A stretch of DNA of 64,000 bases. It comes from Eledone cirrhosa (Eukaryota). A model generated the notes under the pieces. The model saw only the letters and a program-made list of their open reading frames with translations. It searched no databases and had not been told where the DNA came from. The stretch lies in NCBI GenBank assembly GCA_964016885.1, contig CAXHJY010000044.1, positions 1 to 64,000 of the forward strand, given 5' to 3'. A program made the translations under genes and the position numbers. Each line of letters opens with the position of its first letter. Positions within the stretch are counted from its first letter, which is position 1. This document shows positions 1,901-56,090 of the stretch, piece by piece.

Positions 1901-1955
1901 AAATTCTTTGCTCTAATACACATTATAATGTGATACAAGTGAATCTCTATTACAT

Positions 1956-2141
1956 AATTGTTTCTACTTGTGGCACAAGGCCAACAAATACCCAGTGTAT
2001 TACTGGTACTTTATTTTATCGACCCCATAAGGATGAAAGACAAAGTTAACCTCGGCGGGATTTGAACTCAGAATGGCAAGGGTCGGAACTCTATGCGTCA
2101 AAGCATGGCGTCCGACCCTCTACCGATACTGCCAATCCACC
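1956..2141 (-). mobile_element. tRNA-derived SINE S1
   Basis: A box TGGCAGTATCGG and B box GAGTTCAAATCC on the minus strand; colinear with other copies. Confidence 0.9.
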
Positions 2142-2199: not shown

Positions 2200-2770
2200 A
2201 TTAAAGGTCTCATAAGACTCAGAGAACTCCTAGCAGAGAACTCCATAGCCCTCATCATTTACTCTCGTTACGTAGATGATATCAATATCAATATAGTAAT
2301 GATATCAATATAGTAATGAAAACACCCCCACAAGAGGGTACCAATAAACCCGAATTAGAAACTATAACAATGGAGAGCATCCAGCAGATAGCTGATTCCA
2401 TACATCAGAGCATGACAGTAATTATCGACTACCCTTCCAAACACCCAAACAATAGACCACAGTTTTAGACACTGAACTTTGAACTCTGGTTAAACACTAT
2501 GAACGAGAAAACTCAAATTCTCCACTCACATTATGCTAAACCCATGGCCTCCAATTCCTTATACACAAAAACTCAGCGATCTCCAATAGTGCTTAATATT
2601 CTGATTTAACAGACTTGGTAAGAGTGATGAAGAATATGTCCCCCTTGTGCGATCCAACTGAACTGGAAATACACGTACAACACTTCAGCAATCGCATGCA
2701 GTTATCTGGCTACAACCAAAGAGACAGAATCAGGGTGTACAAAGGAGTCATGGAGAAATATAAGACCCTC
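2200..2770 (+). pseudogene. PLE reverse transcriptase relic
   Basis: YSRYVDDINI, MESIQQIADSIHQSMTVIIDYPSKHPNN, HSHYAKPMASN with frameshifts. Confidence 0.75.
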
Positions 2771-3001
2771 ATACTTTCCTAAACTTCCATTTTTCTCTCT
2801 TTCACTATCGATTGTTTCACCTTTTCGGTCTATCTTTTATTCTTTTCCTCGCTTCTTTAGATCTTCCTCTCTTTCACTCTCTCTCAGCTTTTCATTTTCT
2901 CCTTTGTCTCCTCCCCTCTCCCCCTCTCTCTCCCATCACTCCCTCTCTCTGGATTGTTTCTGCACTTCATTTCTCACTTTCCTGTAAATTCTCATTATTC
3001 G

Positions 3002-10827: not shown

Positions 10828-10877
10828 GCGCATACACACACAACACACACACATACATATATACATATGACATAACA

Positions 10878-11096
10878 TACAAAAACAAGATGGTGTAGGA
10901 CAGAAAAAATGAGAGGCACAAAATAAAAACTCAGTCGCTGAGGAGGTCACAGAATGTGTGACGAAAGAGCTTTGACAATATATAAACAACCATCCGGTTT
11001 TCGAACCAACCAACCAACTGGTAATTTATAATAAATTGAACTGAAAACCAACAGGTTTGTGTGTTTTTATTGGCAGCATGATCCTCCCAAAGTATG
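10878..11096 (+). mobile_element. Single arm of PLE pLTR family A with HHR (10934-10976)
   Basis: Homologous to 62090-62340; CUGAGGA-G-GUCACA/UGUGAC-GAAAG-AG-CUU. Confidence 0.8.
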
Positions 11097-11188
11097 AAAA
11101 TATATATAGATATATATGACAATATATATAAATATATATTCGGATCTAGCTGTCGAAACGACCGGAGCTCGGCCATAGGGGTCCTGAC

Positions 11189-11579: not shown

Positions 11580-12575
11580 TAATGTAGACTCTTTAACTCT
11601 TTCTCCTCCCCTCCTGACCCCTCTCACCTTCTCTTCCCCCTGGACATCACCTCTCTCTATACCGTGATCCCTCATAATGACGGCGTCCGTGCTCTCCGAC
11701 ACTTATTGAACTTACGTCCTACCCTTTACTCCAGCACTACCACTCTTCTACGTCTGGCTGAGCTTGTTTTGACCCTCAATGCGTTTTCCTTTTCCAGTGA
11801 GTTCTATCAGCATGTCTCTGGGGGTATCGATGGGAACCAGAATGAACCCAAACTATGCCAACTTGTTTGTTGGCTACGTCGAAACCCAGATCTTATCCCA
11901 GATCTTACGCTAGACCTACTCCTGAGCTATACGGTCGTTATATCGACGTATGTATCAGCGCCACCTCTCTATCACGAGAATAGCTCGACTGTTTCTATCT
12001 TTTGTTCAATCTTTTCATCCCGCTCTCACCTTCATTACATCCAACCCCGATTCTTCTGTCCCCTTTCTTGATATCTCTCTCTCTATCGATCACACTCATC
12101 ACACTCTCTCTACTTTCATCTTCTATAAACATACTGACTCCCACTCTTACCTCCATTTCATCTCCTCCCATCCAACCCACACCAAACCTCCATACAATAC
12201 TACCAATTCCTCCGTCTCCGTCGGCTCTGTAGCCAGGACCACGATTTCGAAACCCATTCCCTTTACATGGCCTCCCGCTTCATCCAGCGTGGATATCCCC
12301 CCAACTCCGATCCAAGCTGCTCTCCTCCGCGCCCGTGAAACCGACCGTATCAGCGCCCTCCCAACACCCACCTTCCTTTCACTCTCACCTATCATCCCAT
12401 CATCCTACCTCTCCGACGACATATTTCACCATTCTTTCCGCACCCTCTCTTCTGACCCCGCCACCTCTCGCTTTTTTCCTAACCAACCTATCACCATTTT
12501 TAAGCGCACCAGTAATCTCCGCCACCTCCTGGTACGCAGTTCCTTCTCGTCCTCTCCTACGCATCCACTCGGCTC
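11580..12575 (+). pseudogene. PLE reverse transcriptase relic, 5'-truncated
   Basis: LRLAELVLTLNAFSFSSEFYQHVSG, FHPALTFIT..VPFLDISL..FYKHTDSHSYLHFISSHP..FKRTSNLRHLLVRS. Confidence 0.85.
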
Positions 12576-12579
12576 TCAT

Positions 12580-12843
<264 letters not shown>

Positions 12844-12899: not shown

Positions 12900-13436
12900 C
12901 AGCAGCAAGGTATAAGCTGACCACTACAACAACAACAGTACCAAAATAATGGTGGAGGTCAAATGTACTGAACAATAGCAGGCATAAACACCACAGGGAG
13001 CCTCACCCCAGAAAGAATTCTATAGACTTCTGACTGAGGAATGCTCTCAGAACTGAACAATGGGAAGTTTGACACATTTTTTGATATTTTGTTCCTTCAA
13101 CACCTTGTCCCTTCTACCATTTTATCAATTTTTAAGCTAACTCCAACAATGACAACACTAATAACTGACCAATGAGAGGAGAAGGGGACCTGTGACACGA
13201 AAATTCGTTTGTTTGAATTCATATGACTCCAGTTCCCCAGTGAATTAACAACCCAGCAAGGAACTGGGCATATCAGAGTATTGACAATATCATACACCTA
13301 AACAACATATGTACTTGTCTATACCATACTAATTCAAACTGCCTGAAGAGGTCACAGCCAAAGATGGCTGTCACTGAAATATATATAGCAGTAATAAACG
13401 AAGCTAAATTTTAATCATTTGACTTTTATTTAACTT

Positions 13437-13443
<7 letters not shown>
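12900..13443 (+). mobile_element. HHR-terminated repeat; copy at 30195-30655
   Basis: High identity over about 440 bp; both end HHR-AATAAA-short tail-(TA)n. Confidence 0.8.
13338..13392 (+). ncRNA. Type I hammerhead ribozyme
   Basis: ACUGC-CUGAAGA-(ACAGCCA/UGGCUGU)-GAAAU-AUAU-AUA-GCAGU. Confidence 0.85.
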
Positions 13444-14273: not shown

Positions 14274-14320
<47 letters not shown>

Positions 14321-14322
<2 letters not shown>

Positions 14323-14515
14323 TGTTATACTTTGGGAGGGTCATGTTGCCAATAAAAAGCACACACGCACCTGTTGGTTTACATTTCTATTTATTACAAA
14401 TTTCCGTGAATGGGCTTTTATTTTGTGTCTCTCCTATGTTCTGTCCTACACCACCTTGTGTTTGTGTGTTGCGTCAAAAGAATTCCTGCAAAACAAATTC
14501 AAAAACGAAGTACAC
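14321..14515. mobile_element. Internally deleted family A fold-back (part of left arm plus tail end)
   Basis: Starts tgttatactttgggagggtcatgttgcc as at 61821; ends aaacaaattcaaaaacgaa. Confidence 0.7.
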
Positions 14516-18108: not shown

Positions 18109-18452
18109 CACTTTAATACATGACTACACTTATATCTAACTATACACATCAAACATATATATATATTTACTTATTTATATACATTTTCACATATATATAT
18201 ACATACTTATGGACGTTTTTAGACACATTCATTATCGCATATTTCCACCTATTCTCATCAGCATATCTTTCCATTATTAGTGTGGTAATTTAAGGTTATT
18301 AATATATGTTGAGAAGAGATTGTTTTTATATTTTTCTAACTAGATTGAGGTTTATATAGTTGGGGGGATGTCCCTCTTTTATGTAATATTCGGCTTGTAG
18401 TGGGAAAAAAGGGTTTTAGTTCTGTGACGGCAGAATAATGTTCGTTCAATTT

Positions 18453-18603
18453 AACCAGTGTATTACCGGTACTTTATTTTATCGACCCCGTAAGGATGAA
18501 AGGCAAAGTTAACCTCGGCAGGATTTGAACTGAGAATGGCAAGGGCCGTAACTCTATGCGTCAAAGCATGCGTCCGACCCTCTACCTATACTGCCAATCC
18601 ACC
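18453..18603 (-). mobile_element. tRNA-derived SINE S1
   Basis: Colinear with other copies. Confidence 0.9.
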
Positions 18604-18621
18604 ATCAATAATATTAATACA

Positions 18622-18830
18622 TAAGGGAACAAAGAATCAGTGTTGCATCATATACATATTTACTTACATATTACATACGTCTACATGTTAAAACATATAC
18701 GAGGAGCTTCCCATGCCAGAGTCAGGTTCGATCACTAATAGATCGTTTCTCGAGCTGATCGACATTGAAACATATGTAATATGTAATTAAATATGTATAT
18801 GATGCAACATTGAATCTTTGTTTCCTTACC
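18622..18830. mobile_element. Fold-back module with a degenerate long-stem-II HHR (18693-18784, +)
   Basis: Arms taagggaacaaaga..gttgcatcatatacatattt / aaatatgtatatgatgcaac..tctttgtttcctta; stem I ACAUAU/AUAUGU, GAAAC-AUAU-GUA, core ACGAGGA. Confidence 0.7.
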
Positions 18831-18835
18831 GAGTA

Positions 18836-19023
18836 GTGGATTGGCAGTATCGGTAGAAGGTCGGACGCCATGCTTTGCAACAAAGAGTTACAGCCCTTTA
18901 TGGTCTGAGTTCAAATCCCGCCGAGGTTAACTTTGCCTTTCATCCTTACGGGGTCGATAAAATAAAGTACCAGTAGTAAACTGATGTGATGATTGCTGGC
19001 CTTGTGCCAAAAGTAGAAACAAT
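18836..19023 (+). mobile_element. tRNA-derived SINE S1
   Basis: Colinear with other copies. Confidence 0.9.
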
Positions 19024-24150: not shown

Positions 24151-24271
24151 CAAATTCTAGCCGACTAGGTGTTGTCGGTTTATTTCTATTGCCTTTTTTA
24201 TAGTAGGAGTATGTATTTTATGATATTTAATGCGCTTTGTTCTTCTTTCTTTGCCAGCATTATGTGACTCG

Positions 24272-24464
24272 GGCAGAGGATTGGCAGTATCGGTAGAAGG
24301 TCGGACGCCATGCTTTGCAGCATAGAGTTACGGCCTTTTACGGTATGAGTTCAAATCCCGCCGAGGTTAAGTTTGTTTTTCATCCTTACAGGGTTGATAA
24401 AATAAATCACCAGTAACGTACTGGGATAATTGCTGGCATTGTAGAAACAAAGTAGAAACAATTA
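24272..24464 (+). mobile_element. tRNA-derived SINE S1
   Basis: A and B boxes; colinear with other copies. Confidence 0.9.
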
Positions 24465-24607
24465 TATGACTCTCTAATCAGAATTTGAATCTTGATGTTT
24501 GACCGTCTGATATCTAAACTATAATAAAGGAAGGTCTGCGGGATTGCGTACGGTTTATATTTTTATTTTTTTATCCCGTTTATAAATAAGTTGGATTACT
24601 TTGAATA

Positions 24608-24786
24608 AATAATTGTTTCTACTTTTGGCACAAGGCCAGCAATTACCAGTACATTACTGGTTCTTTATTTTATCGACCCCGTAAGGATGAAAGGCAAAGT
24701 TAACCTCGGTGGGATTTGAACTCAGATTGTAAAGGGACGTAACTACTCTGGAAAGCATGTCCGACCTTTCTACCAATACTGCCAAT
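24608..24786 (-). mobile_element. tRNA-derived SINE S1, tail-to-tail with the previous copy
   Basis: Colinear with other copies. Confidence 0.9.
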
Positions 24787-27411: not shown

Positions 27412-27575
27412 CATAACAGTAATAAATGAGAAGACTAAAATCTTATGAGGGCTCGATAAGGATAATATATATATCAAATATATAAAAAAACATAGAGCAA
27501 ATATTTATTAAAATAACAGATTAAAGTTAAGGGTGAAAGCAGCAATACTTTGCTTAAACTTTAATCTGTTATTTT

Positions 27576-28965: not shown

Positions 28966-29126
28966 ATATTGTTATACTTTGGGAGGGTCATGTTGCCAAT
29001 AAGAAACACACGCACCTGGTGCATGTGTTTCTTATTGGCAACATGACCCTCCCAAAGTATAACAATATCGGTTTCAACACACGATTTCAGATAAAGAATC
29101 TTGCTAAACAAATTCAGAAACGAAAT
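28966..29126. mobile_element. Centre-collapsed family A fold-back (about 100-bp hairpin plus coding tail)
   Basis: Same ends as 61817-62398; centre gcacctggtgc. Confidence 0.85.
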
Positions 29127-29144
29127 ATATATATATATATATAT

Positions 29145-29749
29145 GGTGGCTGCCACCTCGTTTTCGAGTACGGCCACTACTTTATATCCATGTAGAAGAA
29201 CCCCTACCAATGCGCTGAACGAGTGTGACTTTTTAGTCCAGCCAGCGACTTGAAAACTCTGGTACAAACACTACACTTGTGACAATTATTGACACAGTGC
29301 TAGGCCCATGGTACCCTGTGACGACAAGTGCAGAGAGATCTCCAGATATAAAGCAATGCCTGTGCCGTGAAGCTTTTATAGTGAGCAAAGGCACTGCACA
29401 AAGCCAGTCCCACTCTCTTAACCAAGATGATATTTACCAAAAAGAAGAACAAGTCAACATCATTGGATACCATCAGGGTTGCAGGTGTTATATCAGAGTC
29501 TTCCTTCTCCTAGAATTCTGCCTTGACAAAGACTAAGGGGTCATCTCTCCCGGTGATTTTGGATGGCCATTGACTCTTAAGAGCTCCTTTGCCCTTTGAC
29601 AGGTTTTGTTTTTAGTCCTGCAGGATGTCCAACTTCACCCTCCTCACCAAGAAACCTCGGTGGGGTTGCCAGTTTAGTCGCCAACGACCCGACCATGAGT
29701 CAGGTTGTACTGGGATACATGTTACCAGTAGCACCAACTGGTGACCTGA
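29145..29749 (-). mobile_element. Longest copy of the bipartite non-autonomous RTE derivative (about 605 bp)
   Basis: Structured 5' end; motif cccttag..ttctaggagaagg shared with the putative RTE 5' UTR near 56420-56480; C2H2-coding 3' end; flanked by (TA)n. Confidence 0.75.
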
Positions 29750-29766
29750 TATATATATATATATAC

Positions 29767-29797
<31 letters not shown>

Positions 29798-29816
29798 CAT
29801 ATACATACATATATAT

Positions 29817-30192
29817 GGTGGCTGCCAACTCGTTTTCGAGTACGGCCACTACTTTATATCCATGTAGGAGAACCCCTACCGATGCGCTGAACGAATGTGA
29901 CTTTAGTCCAGCCAGCGACTTGAAAACTCTGGTACAAAGACTACACTTGTGACCATTATTGACACATAGTGCAGGGCCCATGGTACCATGTGATGACAAG
30001 TGCAGAGAGATCTCCAGATATAAAGCAATGCCTGTGCTGTGAAGCTTTTATAGTGAGCAAAGGCACTGCACAAAGCCAGTCCCACTCTCTTAACCAAGAT
30101 GATATTTACCAAAAAGAAGAACAGGTCAACATCATTGGATACCATCAGGGTTGCAGGTGTTATATCAGAGTTTTCCTTCTCCTAGAATTCTG
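29817..30192 (-). mobile_element. 5'-truncated copy of the bipartite RTE derivative
   Basis: High identity to 29145-29520. Confidence 0.8.
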
Positions 30193-30194
30193 GT

Positions 30195-30655
30195 ATCTCA
30201 CCCCAGAAAGAATTCTATAGACTTCTGACTGAGGAATGCTTTCAGAACTGACCAATGGGAAGTTTGACACTTTTTTTGTTATTTCGTTCCTTTAACACCT
30301 TGTCCCTTCTACTATTTTATCAATTTCTAAGCTAACTCCAACAATAACAACACTTAGAATGAGGAATGTTCTAATAACTGACCAATGAGAGGAGAAGGGG
30401 ACCTTTGACACTGAAATTCGCTTGTTTGAATTCATATGACTCCAGTTCCTCAGTGAATTAACAACCCAACAGGGAACTGGGCATATCAGAGTATTGACAA
30501 TATTATACACCTAAACAACATATGTACTGGTCTATACCATACTAATTCAAACTGCCTGAAGAGGTCACAGCCAAAGATGGCTGTCACTGAAATATATATA
30601 GCAGTAATAAACGAAGCAAAATTTTAATCATTTGACTTTTATTTAACTTTATTTT
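30195..30655 (+). mobile_element. HHR-terminated repeat (HHR 30551-30605)
   Basis: Copy of 13003-13443 with an identical HHR. Confidence 0.8.
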
Positions 30656-30830
30656 ATATATATATATACGTATATATATATATATATATATATACGTATA
30701 TATATATATATATACGTATATATATATATATATACGTATATATATATACGTGTATATATATATATATACGTGTATATATATATATACGTGTATATATATA
30801 TATATACGTGTATATATGTATATATATATA

Positions 30831-31331
30831 TTGATTTTGCAGCAAAATCAATGTTAATGGATGGGTGCAGTGACACCACATCCATGCTGCCTATTGTGCA
30901 GTTGGATAGGTTCCTGTTTTTGTTGCACTCACTGATTCTGCTAAACAAACAAGCAAATAAATAAATATATAGACAGACTGAATAAAAATGGCGTAGACAT
31001 ACAATACAACAGGAGGAAACGATAGCACCACTGACGATGTTGCAGATGTGCAACGAAAGATTTATGATAAACTATATATATGTGTTTGTGTCTATATTGT
31101 ATCTGTATTATGTTTGACCGTCGGTCAGTCAATGGCAACATTGAGGACCGAGTAAGTTAGATTACCGATATAAAAGACACAGAAGCGAGAAGCGAAAACC
31201 AACCAAACAGTGAGTGTGTTCTGTTATTAATTCTGGCAATATTACACAAATATGACCCTCCCCAAGTATAACAATATTTGTTCCGACACACGATTTCATA
31301 TAAAAAACCTCGCAAAACTAATTCATCGCCG

Positions 31332-31335
<4 letters not shown>
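30831..31335. mobile_element. Inverted PLE RT fragment (-) joined to a family A-related pLTR (+) with HHR 31027-31068 and coding tail
   Basis: Minus strand [16 protein letters not shown] (RT motif A); plus strand CUGACGA-U-GUUGCA/UGCAAC-GAAA; tail [28 protein letters not shown]. Confidence 0.8.
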
Positions 31336-36064: not shown

Positions 36065-36822
36065 TTCTAACATAGACACAGGTCTCTGTCATTGGAATTT
36101 AAACAACATCAACTAGGTAGATATGTCTGCATGTCTGCATGCATGCGTGTGTGTGTAGTTATGGATGTTATTGTATGTGTGCATGTCTATGTTTTGAGTT
36201 ATAGGTGTGCATGTGCATATCTTACGCCAACAACGTGGTTATTATTGTTAAATCAAACGATGTTATAATATCAGAGAGTCAATGTGTCATTTGAACATCG
36301 CCTAGGAAGACAAGCGTTTCCTTCAGATCAATTTACATTCTTCAGTCATTAACACTATTCAAATATCTCTTTCAACTTTTCTTCGTTTATATTCCTGCGG
36401 TGTTAGTTAATGCATCAGCAAATATATTGGAAACTTGATATTTGAAACCAGGCATACACTACATACATGCTCCTACGATGCTTAACTTCCATATCGATAG
36501 CGCCAGCCTCCACATTCTAATACTTCCAGCAATTTATCTACACCATACACTATCCTCATGAGGAACCATAACGGGTAACTTTCTCCACGATAGTTCAGAA
36601 TGCCCGTCGTTGCCGGGTCAGGCCTTTCGCCACTGTAAATAAAGACCCCTTCTCCTCAATATGATCGTATTTAAATAGTCCCAGAAATCTGCTATTTCAG
36701 GGGAGAGCAAGATTTAAACTATATGTTGAAAGATACATAAGCGAAAACCAACCAAACAGTGAGTGTGTTCTGTTATTATTTCTGGCAATATTATAACAAT
36801 ATGACCCTCCCCAAGTATAACA

Positions 36823-36910
<88 letters not shown>

Positions 36911-37287: not shown

Positions 37288-37620
37288 TTTTCGTTTTTAT
37301 ATATAAAGATAAAGAATTACGTTGGTCATAGTGTGGTAAGAAACTCCCCGGAGAGCTAGACAGAAGGTCTTCAGAGAAGAAACCCCCCCGCAAGCGAGTG
37401 TTTCGGCTATTAACTCTTTACACTCTAAGGGGACGACCAGGCCGGATCCTGGTCATGTCACCTGGGTGTCTTTCTGCTACCCGGATATTCCCATTCGGAA
37501 ATCAGAGACTTGCTGTGTATTTAAGCCGTATGGAGATTTTGTTGATAGGATCTAGCTGTAACTACATTCCGTTGCCTCTGCTTTCAAACTTACAGCTCAC
37601 CTTTATTATTTTGGCTATAG

Positions 37621-37806
37621 GGCGGTGGATTGGCAGTATCGGTAGAGGGCCAGACACCATGCTTTGACGCATAGAGTTTCGGCCCTTTCCATTCTGAGCT
37701 CAAATCCCGCCGAGGTCAACTTTGCCTTTCATCCTTACGGGGTCGATAAAATAAAGTACCAGTAATGTACTGGGTAATTGCTGGCCTTGTGCCAAAAGTA
37801 GAAACA
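37621..37806 (+). mobile_element. Full-length tRNA-derived SINE S1
   Basis: Starts ggcggtggattggcagtatcgg (A box); B box variant gagctcaaatcc; ends agtagaaac. Confidence 0.9.
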
Positions 37807-38244
37807 CTTGACGTCAATTTTCCTTATTCATCCTGTGTTTTGCACCGTATCTAATACGTATTTCATACATACCCTGATTACTGCCACTTTAACAGCATAT
37901 CACATACTTCATGCTATATCTGTTGACTTTCCTTATAACATAGAAGTACATGTTCATGCACACACGATGCACACTTGTATTTATTCATTTGCTGTGTGTG
38001 TGTGTGTGTGTGGTTGTGTGTGTATGTATGTGTGAGTTTCATGAAATATGTATGCGATCATGTATGTGTATGTGTGTTAGTCTTCCTACATATTTTTACT
38101 TATTTAATATGATGGTAATTAATATCTCGCAGCGAAGCCTTGACGTCACTATTGAATTATGAAAGACTAAATCTATTTTAGAGATTCTGTTAGAAAATCG
38201 TAGCGAAATATAGGTAATATACATACATATATACACATATGTTT

Positions 38245-38850: not shown

Positions 38851-39038
38851 AATAATTGTTTCTACTTTAGACACAAGGCCAGCAATTACCCAGTGCATTA
38901 CTGGTACTTTATTTTATCGACCCGGTAAGGATGAAAGGCAAAGTCAACCTCGGCAGGATTTGAACTCAGATCGTAAAGGGACGTAACTATGCTGGAAAGC
39001 ATGGCGTCCGACCCTCTACCGATACTGCCAATCCACCG
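38851..39038 (-). mobile_element. tRNA-derived SINE S1
   Basis: Colinear with other copies. Confidence 0.9.
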
Positions 39039-42617: not shown

Positions 42618-45370
42618 GGATAACAAATTATCGTTATAGGTAATCCAGTTAGAGGTTGTGAATACTCCGTATTGTGGATAGTTTTAGTGTACGGCGTTGT
42701 GTGACTCATCAAGAGGTTTCTTTAGGTAGCGAGTTTGTGAGTTCTCGGGAATTCCTGTGCAGGTTAATCTTGGCGTATTAATAGTGAAAGAGTGAACAAT
42801 AGCTTGGTCAACAGTACAAAAAGGGTTTTATTTACAGTATTAACAATTGTTTAATTGATTACGTTGTCTAAAATTGCTAATCACTTGAAGTTGTGTTACT
42901 TAATTTTAAATACAATGCATGCTTAACCAAATCATCAGAAAAACTGATTAAAATTATACACGGCGTTTGTAATATACTAAGAAAATTCAAATCACATCAT
43001 CATTAATAAAGAAAGAAAAAGAAAAAAAAAAAGAAAAAGAGGGAGAGAAAAAGAAAGGAGAAAAAAGAAAAGAGAAAAAAGAAAAGAGAAAAAAGAAAAG
43101 AGAAAAAAGAAAAGAGAAAAAAGAAAAAAAGATAAAGAAAAATAATAAATAAATAATAATAAATAAGTTAGAATGAAGATGATAAAAAAATAAAAAAATA
43201 AATTTTTATGTGTGCGAAGAAAAGTGAACATAATATGATTGTTGAAAATAGTTGTGGTGTTGGTGGTTAAAATATTAAGATATGATGGTATAACATGAAC
43301 ATACTAAATATATACATATATGTCATGGTTAAATTAATAAATTAATAAATTGGAAGTTATGTTAGAAGTGAAGAGAATACGAAATGATATAATGTAAGAG
43401 GTGAAATAGATTTAGGGAAAGAGAGTGAAAGAGAGAAAAGTTAGGTGGTTATGATGTTGATTCAGTGATTAGTTGATTTATTGACAGTTAATAATAATAA
43501 TAATGGGTTATTATAATAGATTCAGGGGGTACAGTTTGAATTATGGAATTGTTGGTTTGAATCAAGTTGGTTTGAAATTAGCGAATTTAGTAGCTGCTTT
43601 ATGCCTACAGAAAATTGACCTTTCTATTTTGCTGTTAAGCAGCATTTTATCATATTTTAAAATATGGAGCAACTCCATATTGCAAAGTCTGCAGTGGAAC
43701 ATTCCATTTTTGTAGGCATTTGCCCCTGACAGTTTCGACCAGCTAATCCAGTATTCTTGGTTTGTATCTTTAAGTTGCCAGATTTTATTGGCGAGCGTTG
43801 TTGTGTGCATTAGTCTACGGTTATTTATAGAGTGTCTGTGGACGTACCATCATTTTTTGAACTCTCCCAATGTAGAACCTATGTAGTGCCATGCTAAGTT
43901 GCCTGAATTTATAGTACACAGGTACACTATATTTGACTCCAGGCATCTATTTTGTAGTTGGCACTTATCCGGTAAGTGACAGTTACGTTTTGAGGCCTTC
44001 CTGTGTGCCGGTTTACCGATGCGGTTTTGTATATTGTTATGTATGGGCTGAGATTTGGGTTTGTTGATGTTTTGTTGTGATGCGTTCTGACGTGTGTGTG
44101 GTTGTGACGTTGTTATGTGTTTGTATTTTGTATTTGGTGTTATGGTGTTTGTTTGTAGGTTATTTTCATTAGAGATTCTTTGATAGTAATTTTATGTATG
44201 TGTGATTCTATGTTGGTTGCAGTAGAGTAAGATAGTTTGATAGTATTTCTATTAAAGATTTTATGGTACTTGTGAAGTTTAGGGAAGTGCTTGTCAATTA
44301 ATTTAAAGAATGTAGAAGTTATTTTGGTTTTTATAGAGGAGTTAAATATTAGATTGAACCATAAGTATTTCTTATCTCTGGATTTTCTATAGTTCCTAGG
44401 GATCCTTATATTAGTATTCGGTTCATTTATTTCTGGTGCTCGTTGTCTATTTCTATGTTTAGTCCTATATTTGTTATTTATATAGGTGTGGGTGGTGTTA
44501 TTGCTGTTAAGTGTGTTGTTGTTTGTATGTGGTATGTATTTGAGCCTCTCCTCCTGGCCTGCCTTAAGTAAAGCTATATTGTAGTAGTTCGCGTTTTCAT
44601 TAAAAATCTCTAGGTTAGAAGATAAGCGTGAAATTCTAAGGGATATACTATGGGCTATGGAGTTAATTATGGTGCGAGGGTGATTTGAGTTATAACTAAT
44701 GTAGGCTAGATTTTCGTTATTTTTATGGAAGGGCTCTATTGAGAGATACATCCAAGAAGATAGCTTTTTTAAAGTTGAGTTCGAAGGTGATGCCTAGGAC
44801 TACGTAGTTTATTGAAGAAGGTTCTAATCTTTTTATGTAATCTTTCCATGTTTGATTATTCAAGTTTTTAGCTAAAAGTAGAGTATCGTCTCTATAAATT
44901 CCTCCCTGGCGGTTATCAAATTCCTTATGTAAGTTATGCGCTATATATATTCCAACCATGTCTGTTACTTGAGCTGAGTCGTTAGATCCCATAGTGATAT
45001 TAAAGCTATTCTGTCTGTTTTTTCTTTCCCAGTAACTATTATCGAACCTAATGAAAGTACTTCTAGCAGCTAGTATTATTCTAATTTCATTAGAGGATAG
45101 GTCCGAGATTTTCTGTGCAAAGGTTAGTGCCTTATTTAGGGTGACTGGGTAAATAGAGGAATAGTAGTCATTGATGTCAAACTGTATGAAGTCGGATGTT
45201 TCCTTATTGTCTAATTTGCTAAACCAATCTATTGCTTCGTTAGTGTTACCCCAAAGCTTAATTATTAGTTTGTCTTTAATTTGTGGTATTCTATCTAGTA
45301 TATACTTGTTATTTCTACCTTTATCCGATTTCGATGGACATATTAATCTAATAGTGGGGTCAGTATAATC
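42618..45370 (-). mobile_element. 5'-truncated Penelope-like element (RT, GIY-YIG, 3' UTR, pLTR with HHR 42835-42946)
   Basis: FIQFDINDYYSSI, MGSNDSAQ, GIYRDDTL, FLDVSL; NIVYLC..HYIGST; CRLCNMEL; HHR CUGAUGA...UAAAC-AAUU-GUU (G12 mutated); frameshifted. Confidence 0.9.
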
Positions 45371-45530
45371 ACCCAGAAACATTAGTGTCTGCAGTTCTGT
45401 TTACATGCCAACACACGGGCAAGAATGAGGGCTCATTCTACTGATATGGCTTAAAAAAAGAGGCTGTTTGCATAATTGGAAACGAATCGAATATTATTGT
45501 CAATATTCGAAAAACTCAGATTACATTTAT
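45370..45530 (+). mobile_element. Inverted pLTR half of the 40700-41035 family joined to the PLE 5' truncation point
   Basis: gaaacattagtgtctgcagttctg...attcgaaaaactcagatt matches 40844-41000. Confidence 0.75.
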
Positions 45531-47556: not shown

Positions 47557-47682
47557 AGTAATAATAATAAATTTGAAGACTAAAATCCAAAGAGGGCTCG
47601 ATAAGGATAAATATGAGTTTCAGAAGATCCCGTTAAGGGTGAAATCAGCGATTCTTTGCTTAAACTTTAATCTGTTATTTTA

Positions 47683-52116: not shown

Positions 52117-52122
52117 GTATTA

Positions 52123-52307
52123 TAATTGTTTCTACTTTTGGCACAAGGCCACCAATTACCCAGTGTATTACTGGTACTTTATTTTATCGACCCCATAAGG
52201 ATGAAAGGCAAAGTTAACCTCGGCGGGATTTGAACTCAGAATGGCAAGGGCCGTAACTCTATGCGTCAAAGCATGGCGTCCGATCCTCTACCGATACTGC
52301 GAATCCA
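52123..52307 (-). mobile_element. tRNA-derived SINE S1
   Basis: Colinear with other copies. Confidence 0.9.
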
Positions 52308-52791: not shown

Positions 52792-55700
52792 CTAACAGCG
52801 CTGCGATCGAATGTGGCTTTTTAGCCCAGCCAATGATCTAAAATGTCTTGCACAGAGTCGGCAACCAAAACATTCAATGGGAATAGCCGGCTGTGGTTGG
52901 AGTTCATGTACTTTTACATGTCGCTTGAGCGCTCCTGCTGATTTACATTCTCTACCACATGCTTGGCATGCATGATGAGTAGCATCTCCAACAGCAGCCT
53001 GGTAGTCAACCACTGGTCTTACTTTATGACTGCGAAGATGACTTTCGTGTCCAGCTTTGTTTAGGCAGAGACTCGCACAGACGCTGCATGTCAGCACTAT
53101 AGGAGGACCCTCGCCGTCTGGAAGTGCAACAGCAATGCCCTTCCTCACATCCTGCTTTACTTTCTCGTATGCGATTCGAGATGCCTCAAAGACAACTTTT
53201 CCCTCATATACAGTCTTTCTCCATTTATTACGATCAGCAGCAATATTTTCTCATGTATCAGCAGAGATGTTAGCGTCTTTCAAAGAGGCTTTCAAAGAAT
53301 CCTTATACCTCTTTTTTGGTTTATGTGGCGGTCGTTTTCCTTTAACTAACGCTCCATAAAAGAGTTGTTTTGGTATTCTAGAATCCTTCATCCTTTCCAA
53401 AATCTCGACATCACTGATGTGGTCCCTTCAGTGAACGCCATGGATCCGTCTGAGACACATCTGATGGAAACGCTCCAATTGCTTAAGGTGGTGTCGATAT
53501 GTGACCCAGGTCTCGCAGGCATAAAGAAGACAAGAGAGCACACAAGCCTTGTACTCCTTTACCTTTGTCCTCTTGCATATGTCTCGCCGACCCCAGAGTC
53601 GCCTTTCTAGCTTTCCGAAAGCATCACTTGCTTTCCTAATCCTAAGTGAGATTTCACTATCAAGGTTGCTGTATCGATTGACAGTGCTTCCCAGGTAGAC
53701 AAACTGATCAACCACTCCAAGTCGTTTACCATACACATAGATATTTGGTTCAGTGTACTGCTTACCAGAGGCAGGTTGGTACATGACGACGGTTTTCTTT
53801 AGACTGACAGTCAATCCTAGGGCAGTGCAAGCGTCAGAAAATGCATTCAAAATGTGCTGCATATCACTCTGTGTGTGCGCTACAAGATCGCAATCATCTG
53901 CATACAAGAGGTCTCTTATGATTGATGTAAATACTTTTGTCTTTGCAGCAAAGCGACTGATGTTAAATATGCTGCCTGAGGTTCGATATCGGATGTAAAC
54001 ACCATGCTCGCAATTCCTGAATGCAATACAGAAAACCATTGCAAAGTATATGGCAAAGTATAAGGGTCGGTGCTGGAATATCCCCCCGTTTCACTTCCTT
54101 TTTTTTACTGAGATAGGCTCCGACATGTTACCTCCGACATTAACCCAAGCCTTCATGTCGTCATGGAAAGACGTAACTAAAGCAAGGAACTTATCAGGGC
54201 AACCAAGTTTCTGGAGAACCTTCCATAATACATCTCTGTTGTCAGATCGACAAAAACCTGATACAGATCCAAACCTTGTTCATGCATTTCTCCTGGAGCT
54301 GTCTAGCTGAGAAGATCATATCAGTAGTGCCGCGTCCAGCACGAAAACCAGATTGACTTTCAGGAAGAACACAATCTGAAATGTGTGTCAGCAGACGGTC
54401 CAGAAGCACCCTACATAAAACTTTCCCAACGACAGAAAGCAAAGATATACCTCTGTAGTTCCCACAATCATTCCTAGAGTGAAGATGTTGCAGGAGTCTC
54501 TCACCACCATATTGTAGGAGCTCAGCATGTATGCCATCCATACCTGGAGACTTTCCACTGTTCAGCTTCGAGATAGCTACTGCAACCTCCACAAGCGTCG
54601 GAGTTTCTGCGAGAGCTACTTTCACAGGACTTTCTGGAATGAGATTGAGGAAATCTTTACTGACGACAGACGGCTGATTCAAAAGATCATCAAAGTGCTC
54701 TCGCCACCTTCGTAGAATTCCTTGTGAGTCACGAAGAAGTTCTTTGCCATCCTTGCTGCGAAGCGGTGTCACCAGAGAAGAAGACGGTCCATAAACCTCA
54801 CGCAAGAGACTGTACAACAGCTTTGTGTTATTGGAATCTGACGCAGTTTGTATCTAACCAGCCTTCTCACTCCACCACTCATCTTTCATCTGAGAAAGAC
54901 TCCGCCTAACACGTAATTTTACATCCTTGAGTTCCTTATGCAACGTATTCCTCTCCTGTGGTTTTGCCGTCAAGTAGCGTGACAGAGCATGCCTCTTATC
55001 AGCCAACAAGTCTTCTATATGTACATCATTCTCATTAAACCAGTCCTGATGTTTTCTCTGCACCAATCCCAGAACACGCCTGCCTACATCATAAACCGAC
55101 TTTTTAAGGATCGGCCAATCCTCACCAAGATCTGCAACCTGCATCTCTTCTTCCAATGTCCTCTTCACATTTTTATCCTTAAGACGAGCAGCATTCAATC
55201 TTTTGGGCAGGGCAACACCAGGAGCCCGGATTTTACGTTTAATGATTAGTTTCACTTTTGCGCGTACCAGGCGGTGGTCCGTCCAGCACTCAGCTCCACG
55301 AAGATCACGAACACACTGAACATCCTGTCTGTCACGCATCCTGACTAGGACGTAGTCCAAAAGATGCCATTCCTTAGATCCATGTGGTCTTGAATTTGTT
55401 CTTTTGTTGGAACATGGTGTTGGTAACACACAGATCCAGCTCCTCACACATCTGCAGCAGGGGCATACCATTGTTGTTACACTTTCCCACCCCATGCCTT
55501 CCGTTTACATTCCACGTATTAAAATCCCTACCCACTCTAGCATTAAAGTCACCAAGCACGATGACTTTGTCTGCCTGAGGGATATTTCTTAAAGCACCTT
55601 TCAAGGCATGGTAAAAGGACACTTTTTCTTTTTCGACAGAATTCATAGTTGGAGCATACACACTCACCAGGGCCGCATATCTTCCTTTGTCCAGCGGAAT

Positions 55701-56090
55701 TCTCATGGACATAAGACGCCCACTAATCCCTACTGGGAATTCTTCTAATTTATTCACAAGTACAGTCTTAACAGCAAATCCTACCCCAGCCTCTCTTCTG
55801 GTTCCTTCATCTCTTCCTTTCCAGAAGAATGTATATTCTCCACAAAATTCTGTAAGATGACCATCTCCAGCTAACCTCGTCTCAGATAAAGCTACGATGT
55901 CAAGATCATAACGTCGAAGCTCCTTTGCAACAAGAGCGGTCCTTCGTTCAGGACACTCCAAGGAATCCCTGTCAAGCAGCGTCCGTACGTTCCAGCAGCC
56001 AAGACTAAATGCCTTGTTTGGCTCTATTACAATGGCACGATGACGAGCGGGCCCAGGCTGTGATAACCTGGGGCCCCTGCCCTTATTGCC
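52792..56090 (-). mobile_element. RTE-clade (BovB-like) LINE, near full-length, frameshifted: APE endonuclease, RT, three C2H2 fingers
   Basis: GCWNVRTL, ALSETRL, VYAPT, GDFNARVG, TDHRLV; NYRGISLLS, ESQSGFRAGRGT, LLYADD, FVYLGS; CxxC-x12-HxxxH repeats at the C-terminus. Confidence 0.92.

What the first reader, a model, noticed from the sequence alone, without database searches (positions are those of the whole stretch)
29043..31335. Family A tail is a 28-codon ORF start conserved by synonymous substitution and cut at the same codon
Seen: 29043-29126 reads [28 protein letters not shown], 62315-62398 reads MPLPKYNNIGFNTYFEIKNLAKQIQKRN, and the diverged 31252-31335 reads [28 protein letters not shown]. 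Between 29043 and 31252 I count seven synonymous changes (CCA/CCC, ATC/ATT, AAG/AAA, AAT/AAC, CTT/CTC, GCT/GCA, CGA/CGT). All end at the Asn codon running into (TA)n, and the inverted arm ends near KYNN (also 16775 and 36823). Inference: the tail is the N-terminus of the master PLE ORF, and reverse transcription starts at a fixed AAT(A) site that may pair with the TA target.
Basis: partly seen in the sequence, partly recalled or inferred. Interest (0 to 1): 0.75.

Follow-up and report, generated by a model that had tools for sequence, protein, structure and literature searches.

The report
Penelope tail marks two copying starts
These short repeats are the ends of a Penelope-type jumping gene whose copies stop at one of two fixed points inside the start of its own gene, a known signature, and mirrored insertions carry one end of each kind, which likely means that both sides of the DNA break copy the same RNA.

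Summary
The 28 codons begin intact 1,208-1,318-aa Penelope-like (PLE) ORFs (RT plus C-terminal GIY-YIG) in two families, A and B. Copies end at about +23 or +83 from the ATG: 13,378 and 11,874 exact family-A junctions into TATA, against 471 that read on. ORF codons in the pLTR/tail, a one-sided tail and two internal RT starts are in print. Corrections: seven amino-acid changes were omitted (dN/dS 0.22), family B has Tyr or His rather than Asn at codon 28, and pairing with the target is optional. Beyond the papers read: 27 of 28 inverted insertions have one short and one long end. Target duplications fit 11-12 bp. Either arm can be the longer. In one insertion both arms share 33 A-to-G changes found nowhere else in the assembly, pointing to one RNA primed from both DNA ends. 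The RT has about 70 extra residues at the telomerase insertion-in-fingers position, described as absent from C-terminal-endonuclease PLEs, and the tail is 60 nt rather than 30-40.

The parts
28966..29128 (.). Family A fold-back insertion (163 bp) in a TA tract: short (S) arm on minus, long (L) arm on plus, both reaching about -30 from the ATG
28966..29022 (-). S arm: pLTR end plus ORF codons 1-8/9, ending at about +23 (last match +26)
   Evidence: 96% to intact copy L149
29043..29126 (+). First 28 codons of the family A ORF, identical to intact copy L149; L end at about +83
29066..29125 (+). The 60-nt tail proper, between the two inferred RT starts
30840..30942 (-). Reversed fragment of the family B RT (motif A region) forming the left arm of the 31252 insertion, with a small fold-back at the TA junction
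30942..31335 (+). Family B pLTR plus ORF start and tail (ATG at 31252), L-type end
   Evidence: 88% to intact L135
31025..31068 (+). Minimal hammerhead-ribozyme-like core in the family B pLTR
   Evidence: motif scan; no Rfam hit at the same motif in L134
61817..62400 (.). Family A fold-back insertion: S arm 61817-62071 (minus), L arm 62086-62400 (plus), both reaching -243; ATG at 62315
62151..62197 (+). Minimal hammerhead-like core in the family A pLTR (mirror copy with core at 62000 on minus)
   Evidence: stem II forms in the fold; no Rfam hit in L149
16522..16776 (+). Family A pLTR copy with an S-type end into TA, no partner arm found
36739..36825 (+). Family B pLTR fragment with an S-type end into (CA)n(TA)n
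14319..14509 (.). Old rearranged family A copy: S arm on minus (14319-14393) and a decayed tail end (14477-14509)
10876..11103 (+). Diverged A-like pLTR (71%) with hammerhead-like core at 10938 and S-type end
2215..2773 (+). Decayed RT/thumb fragment of the same lineage (78% to family B)

Best explanation
The repeats are the 3' ends of two families of an endonuclease-bearing Penelope-like retrotransposon whose copies end at about +23 or +83 of its own ORF, and these ends likely mark two internal reverse-transcription starts, one used by each side of a staggered DNA break on what is likely a single RNA. Steps: (1) Shown: a 4.1-4.3-kb unit with one ORF (RT, Cys linker, GIY-YIG) and a hammerhead-like pLTR occurs in partial tandems, so a read-through RNA would carry pLTR plus the start of the next ORF. 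(2) Inferred from 11-12-bp target duplications: the endonuclease nicks both strands of AT-rich DNA, mostly (TA)n, 11-12 nt apart. (3) Inferred: each 3'-OH primes cDNA, one at +23 and the other at +83, at positions set by the protein-RNA complex; 2-4 nt of pairing with (TA)n may help but is not needed. (4) Inferred: both cDNAs run toward the RNA 5' end, stop at variable points and are joined head to head, giving an inverted repeat with the 60-nt tail on one side. The codons are conserved because they begin the protein, and probably also because they form the RNA signal.
For: Intact ORFs begin with the peptide. GIY-YIG Pfam hit above cut-off on the EN fragment of L061. The predicted RT fold is nearest to telomerase (Foldseek E 2.5e-9; Z 14.8, rmsd 3.7, 277 aligned). 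Whole-assembly exact counts for family A: S into TATA 13,378; passing S 11,875; L into TATA 11,874; reading on into the ORF 471. Genome-order sample: 48 S, 50 L, 1 read-through and 2 other, of 101. Divergent pairs: 27 of 28 are one S plus one L (binomial p=1.1e-7 against independent choice); 76 of 85 over all loci held then, a partly selected and redundant set. Informative target duplications in 18 of 73 elements vs 2.1 (max 5) when flanks are shuffled; 16 of the 18 fit 11 or 12 bp. The S arm reaches further upstream in 30 elements, the L arm in 23, and they are equal in 23, of 76; in the first class neither arm contains the other. In L067 all 33 A-to-G changes of the L arm recur in the internal pLTR of the S arm and none in its terminal pLTR; an edited 29-mer occurs at exactly these two places in the assembly. 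Two internal RT starts bounding the tail, and extension of both strands, were shown in vitro for Anolis Poseidon (PMC11167929).
Against: No biochemistry and no RNA data here (no RNA holder listed). The single-RNA step rests on one insertion; a lost or unassembled edited donor locus, or conversion between arms, would give the same pattern. In L067 the two starts lie on different repeat units 4.3 kb apart, so a rigid 60-nt ruler on one junction cannot be the whole rule. Family B is less tidy: 20 S, 4 L and 6 other ends (several near +69, some with indels) among 30. No significant shared RNA structure was found around the two sites (z -0.76 and -0.24). PMC11167929 saw no difference in start site between strands, so it does not by itself predict the one-of-each rule. 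55 of 73 elements gave no readable target duplication.
Confidence: 0.7

Rival explanations
1. One priming site; the other end arises when the cDNA folds back and is copied, and the endonuclease then cuts and joins it (the EN-mediated resolution or self-priming ideas of PMC8557442 and PMC3846280).
For: It explains shared edits in L067 directly and palindromic centres (11-nt overlap in 14 of 76 elements, mostly the selected 163-bp form). Both ends lie in AT-rich words that a GIY-YIG enzyme could cut.
Against: In 30 of 76 insertions the S arm extends further than the L arm while only the L arm has the tail, so neither can be a fold-back copy of the other unless a longer intermediate was trimmed. 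Both sites behave as RT starts in vitro in PAc.
Confidence: 0.15
2. One reading: starts are chosen by base pairing of the nicked (TA)n primer with AUAU words in the RNA.
For: Both family A ends and the family B short end overlap ATAT; the B long end overlaps TAT or AT. L ends continuing ...AAT-[not A]-N-[C/G] number only 31.
Against: ATATA at +47 of family B is unused in 30 of 30 sampled ends and TATA at +16 of family A in 101 of 101. The long end keeps its position across three sequence contexts. Zero-homology junctions with clean duplications exist (L284, L299, L314). Pairing alone gives no one-of-each rule.
Confidence: 0.1
3. The ends are RNA 3' ends (processing or termination at two sites), or the (TA)n is written de novo by telomerase-like repeat copying of AUAU.
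For: The RT is telomerase-like and nearly every end abuts (TA)n.
Against: No poly(A) at the junctions. The hammerhead-like core lies 170-220 nt upstream of the ATG. Insertions such as L050, L053, L268, L271 and L284 have clean duplications and no added TA.
Confidence: 0.05

Closest known systems
EN+ Penelope elements of Adineta vaga (Arkhipova et al. 2013, PMC3846280; passages read)
   Same: The pLTR includes the first ORF codons (12 aa, 22 with the tail); the tail sits on one of the inverted pLTRs; 8-10-bp target duplications; Asn-rich inserts in the ORF.
   Different: Here 8-9 and 28 codons, a 60-nt tail instead of 31, 11-12-bp duplications, about 25,000 (A) and 9,600 (B) exact start-motif matches, and (TA)n targets.
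Poseidon PAc of Anolis carolinensis (Frangieh et al. 2024, PMC11167929; parts 1-2 of 4 read)
   Same: Two internal RT starts inside the ORF 5' end bound the tail; AT-rich cleavage; both strands cut and extended.
   Different: In PAc the main start is at +111-118 in an AC-rich stem-loop said to be non-homologous to the target, and the ribozyme overlaps the ATG. Here the starts are near +23 and +83, overlap AT words, and the ribozyme-like core is far upstream. One start per DNA end, or a single RNA for both arms, is not stated in the parts read.
Neptune and Nematis clades (Craig et al. 2021, PMC8557442; passages, sections 11-12 and supplement parts 1 and 54 read)
   Same: C-terminal GIY-YIG with a CX2-5CxxC linker; hammerhead-like core in the pLTR; microsatellite bias, which the paper links to this linker.
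   Different: Linker spacing (CxxC-X7-C) is Nematis-like rather than Neptune-like, and the RT has 131 aa between motifs A and B vs about 60 in those clades.
Naiad/Chlamys PLEs and telomerase RT (same paper)
   Same: Insertion between RT motifs A and B; (TA)n targeting in cephalopod Naiads.
   Different: Naiad/Chlamys have an N-terminal EN and a 20-40-aa insertion. Here the EN is C-terminal and the insertion is about 70 aa, in the telomerase size range.

Membership tests
EN+ Penelope-like elements | Single ORF with telomerase-related RT | tested here: met
   1,208-1,318-aa ORFs with YVDD; model pLDDT 91; telomerase chains rank 1-5 by Foldseek and 1-16 by VIA-align. Pfam gave no RT hit on the full ORFs.
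EN+ Penelope-like elements | GIY-YIG endonuclease with CCHH motif | tested here: met
   PF01541 23.9 bits vs cut-off 22.6 on the EN fragment of L061; Cys and YIGET..R..xH residues visible; C673, C684, Y696 and G698 invariant in 87 sequences.
EN+ Penelope-like elements | Partial tandems/pLTR, inverted 5'-truncated copy, one-sided tail | tested here: met
   L061, L134-L153; 27 of 28 pairs with a one-sided tail.
EN+ Penelope-like elements | Hammerhead ribozyme in the pLTR | tested here: inconclusive
   Catalytic cores with a 6-bp stem II at -172 (A) and -222 (B); family A spacer 18 nt vs 7-17 in the published descriptor; no Rfam hammerhead hit; cleavage not testable here.
Neptune/Nematis | CX2-5CxxC linker before a C-terminal EN | tested here: met
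   CX4CxxC-X7-C in A and B; spacing matches the Nematis rows of Fig. S2 by eye.
Neptune/Nematis | No insertion in fingers (about 60 aa between motifs A and B) | tested here: not met
   131 aa in A and B; 129-138 in 88 of 92 parsed homologues (103 found, 11 not parsed); 61-71 in the four weakest hits and 61 in the window's other PLE.
Neptune/Nematis | Placement in the clade by RT phylogeny | not testable with these tools
   No labelled reference PLE proteins could be obtained.
Naiad/Chlamys | N-terminal endonuclease | tested here: not met
   The EN is C-terminal.
Hydra clade | CxCX5C linker, loss of CCHH, DKT motif, length under 3 kb | tested here: not met
   CX4CxxC linker, DKSG, 4.1-4.3-kb unit.
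Telomerase IFD | Structural homology of the insertion to the TERT IFD | not tested
   Only position and length were compared; the fold searches give ranges, not residue pairs.

The most novel reading that the evidence does not exclude
An unnamed PLE lineage with a C-terminal endonuclease and a telomerase-sized insertion in the RT fingers integrates by coupled double target-primed reverse transcription: both 3' ends of an 11-12-nt staggered cut copy one RNA molecule, one end from the +23 site and the other from the +83 site, even when the two sites lie on different repeat units of a tandem transcript. This would explain the inverted, one-tailed PLE insertion and give a natural PLE in which to test what the insertion-in-fingers domain does.
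Probability: 0.45. Interest if true: 0.68.

Novelty: new variant of a known kind. Interest (0 to 1): 0.47.

Why it matters
How PLEs build inverted, one-tailed insertions is called unresolved in PMC8557442 and was only partly answered in vitro in PMC11167929. This family supplies tens of thousands of junctions, intact young ORFs and exact predictions (starts at +23 and +83, one per DNA end, 11-12-nt stagger), so the question can be tested directly. The fingers insertion, if homologous to the telomerase IFD, changes the picture of where that domain occurs among PLEs.

Tried and rejected
The repeat finder on the whole window was swamped by microsatellites. Rfam: no hammerhead among the best 150 of 272 weak window matches, or in the pLTRs of L149 and L134. 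Pfam missed the full ORFs. Sequence search of solved structures gave only weak bacterial RT hits. The protein atlas gave no result, so the N-terminal domain is uncharacterised. No RNA holder listed, so expression was not examined. RNA folds of the ORF start are no more stable than shuffles. The twin identical hairpins that earlier notes report for Hydra-type families were not seen: a weak bulged hairpin follows the S site (z -0.75 and +0.61) and a different one overlaps or follows the L site (z -2.6 and -1.5). Private-variant sharing between arms over all elements was uninformative (33 shared, 160 and 107 unshared, the former including the 33 L067 edits). De novo (TA)n synthesis was rejected as obligatory. 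Six literature searches found no report of the one-short-one-long count, of shared edits between arms, or of a fingers insertion in C-terminal-EN PLEs. Repbase and Arkhipova 2006 were not available, and the supplements of PMC11167929 and PMC3846280 were not read; any of these may hold this lineage or these points. PMC13282606, PMC12602865, PMC8969392, PMC4209133 and bioRxiv 10.64898/2026.07.22.740005 were seen as passages only. No RT tree was built, for lack of labelled references.

Full report
Observation. The three peptides and the seven synonymous changes are in the sequence. dN/dS is 0.23 for the window pair and 0.22 for codons 2-28 of intact ORFs, so purifying selection is real but no stronger than in the RT-EN part of the ORF (0.14). 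Synonymous divergence in codons 2-28 (pS 0.44) is lower than in codons 29-245 (0.79, p=0.007) and, not significantly, lower than in RT-EN (0.66, p=0.12). That fits an added constraint on the RNA or DNA sequence.

Master element. Peptide searches of the window's genome led to copies that read on. L149 and L139 (family A, 1,268 and 1,318 aa) and L134-L137 (family B, 1,208-1,210 aa) are uninterrupted ORFs. [quoted passage not shown] A model of residues 420-1209 of family B (pLDDT 91) is closest to telomerase RT. Units of 4.1-4.3 kb lie in partial tandems, with 458-514 nt from stop codon to the next ATG and a minimal hammerhead-like core in between. The nearest named homologue is an Octopus vulgaris predicted protein (68%).

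Two ends, not one. Exact counts in the 3.0-Gb assembly for family A: 25,130 start motifs; 13,378 run into TATA at KYNN; 11,875 pass that point; 11,874 run into TATA at KRN; 471 read on. Family B has 9,625 start motifs. The first 100 family A matches in genome order, plus one more found in the fetched DNA, give 48 short ends, 50 long ends, 1 read-through and 2 other; the first 30 of family B give 20 short, 4 long and 6 other. Codon 28 of family B is Tyr in 5 of 5 long ORFs and His in two read-through loci. The Asn at 31333 is therefore not the master residue; only A83-T84 is common to all contexts.

Target duplications and pairing. Junctions outside pure (TA)n were collected on purpose, so they show what is possible, not how often. 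Of 73 family A inverted elements, 18 had a readable duplication, against 2.1 on average when flanks were shuffled. 11 or 12 bp fits 16 of the 18; the other two are 22-24-nt matches inside degenerate TA arrays. The starts most often compatible are +23 and +83 or +84. L284 and L299 (short end) and L314 (long end) have no homology between RNA and target at one junction, and five insertions have no TA added. An ATATA word at +47 of family B is unused. Pairing with (TA)n is thus optional, and the TA preference is better assigned to the endonuclease; PMC8557442 links microsatellite targeting to the Cys linker.

One of each, likely from one RNA. In the genome-order sample 27 of 28 divergent pairs have one short and one long end (p=1.1e-7). 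Either arm can be the longer (30 short, 23 long, 23 equal, of 76). Where the short-ended arm is longer, neither arm contains the other, which argues against simple fold-back copying and for two primings. Earlier notes on this genome (AI notes, leads only) suggested using A-to-G edits as a barcode. In L067 the long-ended arm shares all 33 of its A-to-G changes with the internal pLTR that the short-ended arm reached after copying a whole ORF, and none with the terminal pLTR. An edited 29-mer is found only in these two arms. The simplest reading is one edited tandem RNA primed at +23 of the downstream unit and at +83 of the upstream unit. This is a single case, and a lost donor or arm conversion is not excluded. 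The twin hairpins that those notes describe for Hydra-type families were not found here.

Comparison with what is known. [quoted passage not shown] PMC11167929 shows two internal RT starts bounding the tail and extension of both strands. PMC8557442 describes 30-40-bp one-sided tails and (TA)n targeting. Not found in six searches: the counted one-of-each rule, shared edits between arms, a 60-nt tail, and the RT insertion. Motifs A and B are 131 aa apart in both families and 129-138 aa apart in 88 of 92 parsed homologues, against 61-71 in canonical relatives. Hand counts from Fig. S1 of PMC8557442 give about 60 for Neptune, about 87 for a Naiad and about 118-152 for telomerases (the TERT counts assume the same offset, as their first block was not in the part read). 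That paper describes C-terminal-EN PLEs as having no IFD. The linker is Nematis-like in spacing. Clade placement and homology to the telomerase IFD were not tested, and Repbase may already hold such families.

Verdict. It works like other EN+ PLEs and is a member of that group, but it fails a defining test for each named clade examined. The added value is a precise, testable double-priming model and an apparently undescribed RT variant. Shown: ORF identity, two fixed ends, one-of-each pairing, duplication length in readable cases, shared edits in one insertion, insertion length. Inferred: staggered nicking, priming from both ends, single RNA, protein-set start positions. Interest 0.47.

Noticed in passing
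L067 (G000:C1:2081904-2091903): 33-34 A-to-G changes on the sense strand, nearly all between -232 and -84 of the pLTR, in both arms of one insertion: an ADAR-like editing footprint fixed in DNA.
   Followed up: yes
family A pLTR, about -230 from the ATG (window 62098, 16526, 10887): 5' ends of arms cluster at an AAGATGGCG/AAAATGGCG motif shared with family B: 11 of the 65 arms that reach it stop within -17..+2; only 1 of 21 in B. From recall it resembles a YY1 initiator, so it may be the transcription start.
   Followed up: partly
window 30826-30942: The family B insertion's left end lies inside the RT and begins with an 11-bp fold-back at the TA junction, an exception to the two-site rule.
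   Followed up: partly
family B ends near +69 (L136, L249, L260): A secondary long end about 14 nt before the main one.
   Followed up: no
window 43853-45400, minus: Broken ORF of a second, canonical PLE family (61 aa between motifs A and B, Asn-rich insert, YIG motif).
   Followed up: partly
window 11583-12618, plus: Frameshifted RT fragment of a third PLE-like family (read by eye; no Pfam hit).
   Followed up: no
window 13002-13441 and 30197-30654; 61549-61770, 47557-47680, 27414-27574; 40824: Other TA-flanked repeat families with hammerhead-like cores; 61549-61770 is itself a fold-back next to the family A copy.
   Followed up: no
window 52792-56342, minus: Decayed LINE with AP endonuclease and RT (Pfam hits) and C-terminal zinc-finger-like motifs.
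   Followed up: no
window 1951-2141, 18447-19023, 24271-24786, 37620-37809, 38851-39038, 52122-52307: Many copies of a roughly 190-bp dispersed repeat, probably a SINE.
   Followed up: no
G000:C1:132947046-132947579: A 46-bp minisatellite (12 listed units) made from the +64 to +91 region of the family A ORF.
   Followed up: no
L002-L019, L029, L030, L051, L054: The same 163-bp fold-back as at 28966 recurs at unrelated loci with either A or T at its centre, as expected if two cDNA ends anneal across a one-base mismatch. These loci were selected by likeness to the window copy.
   Followed up: partly
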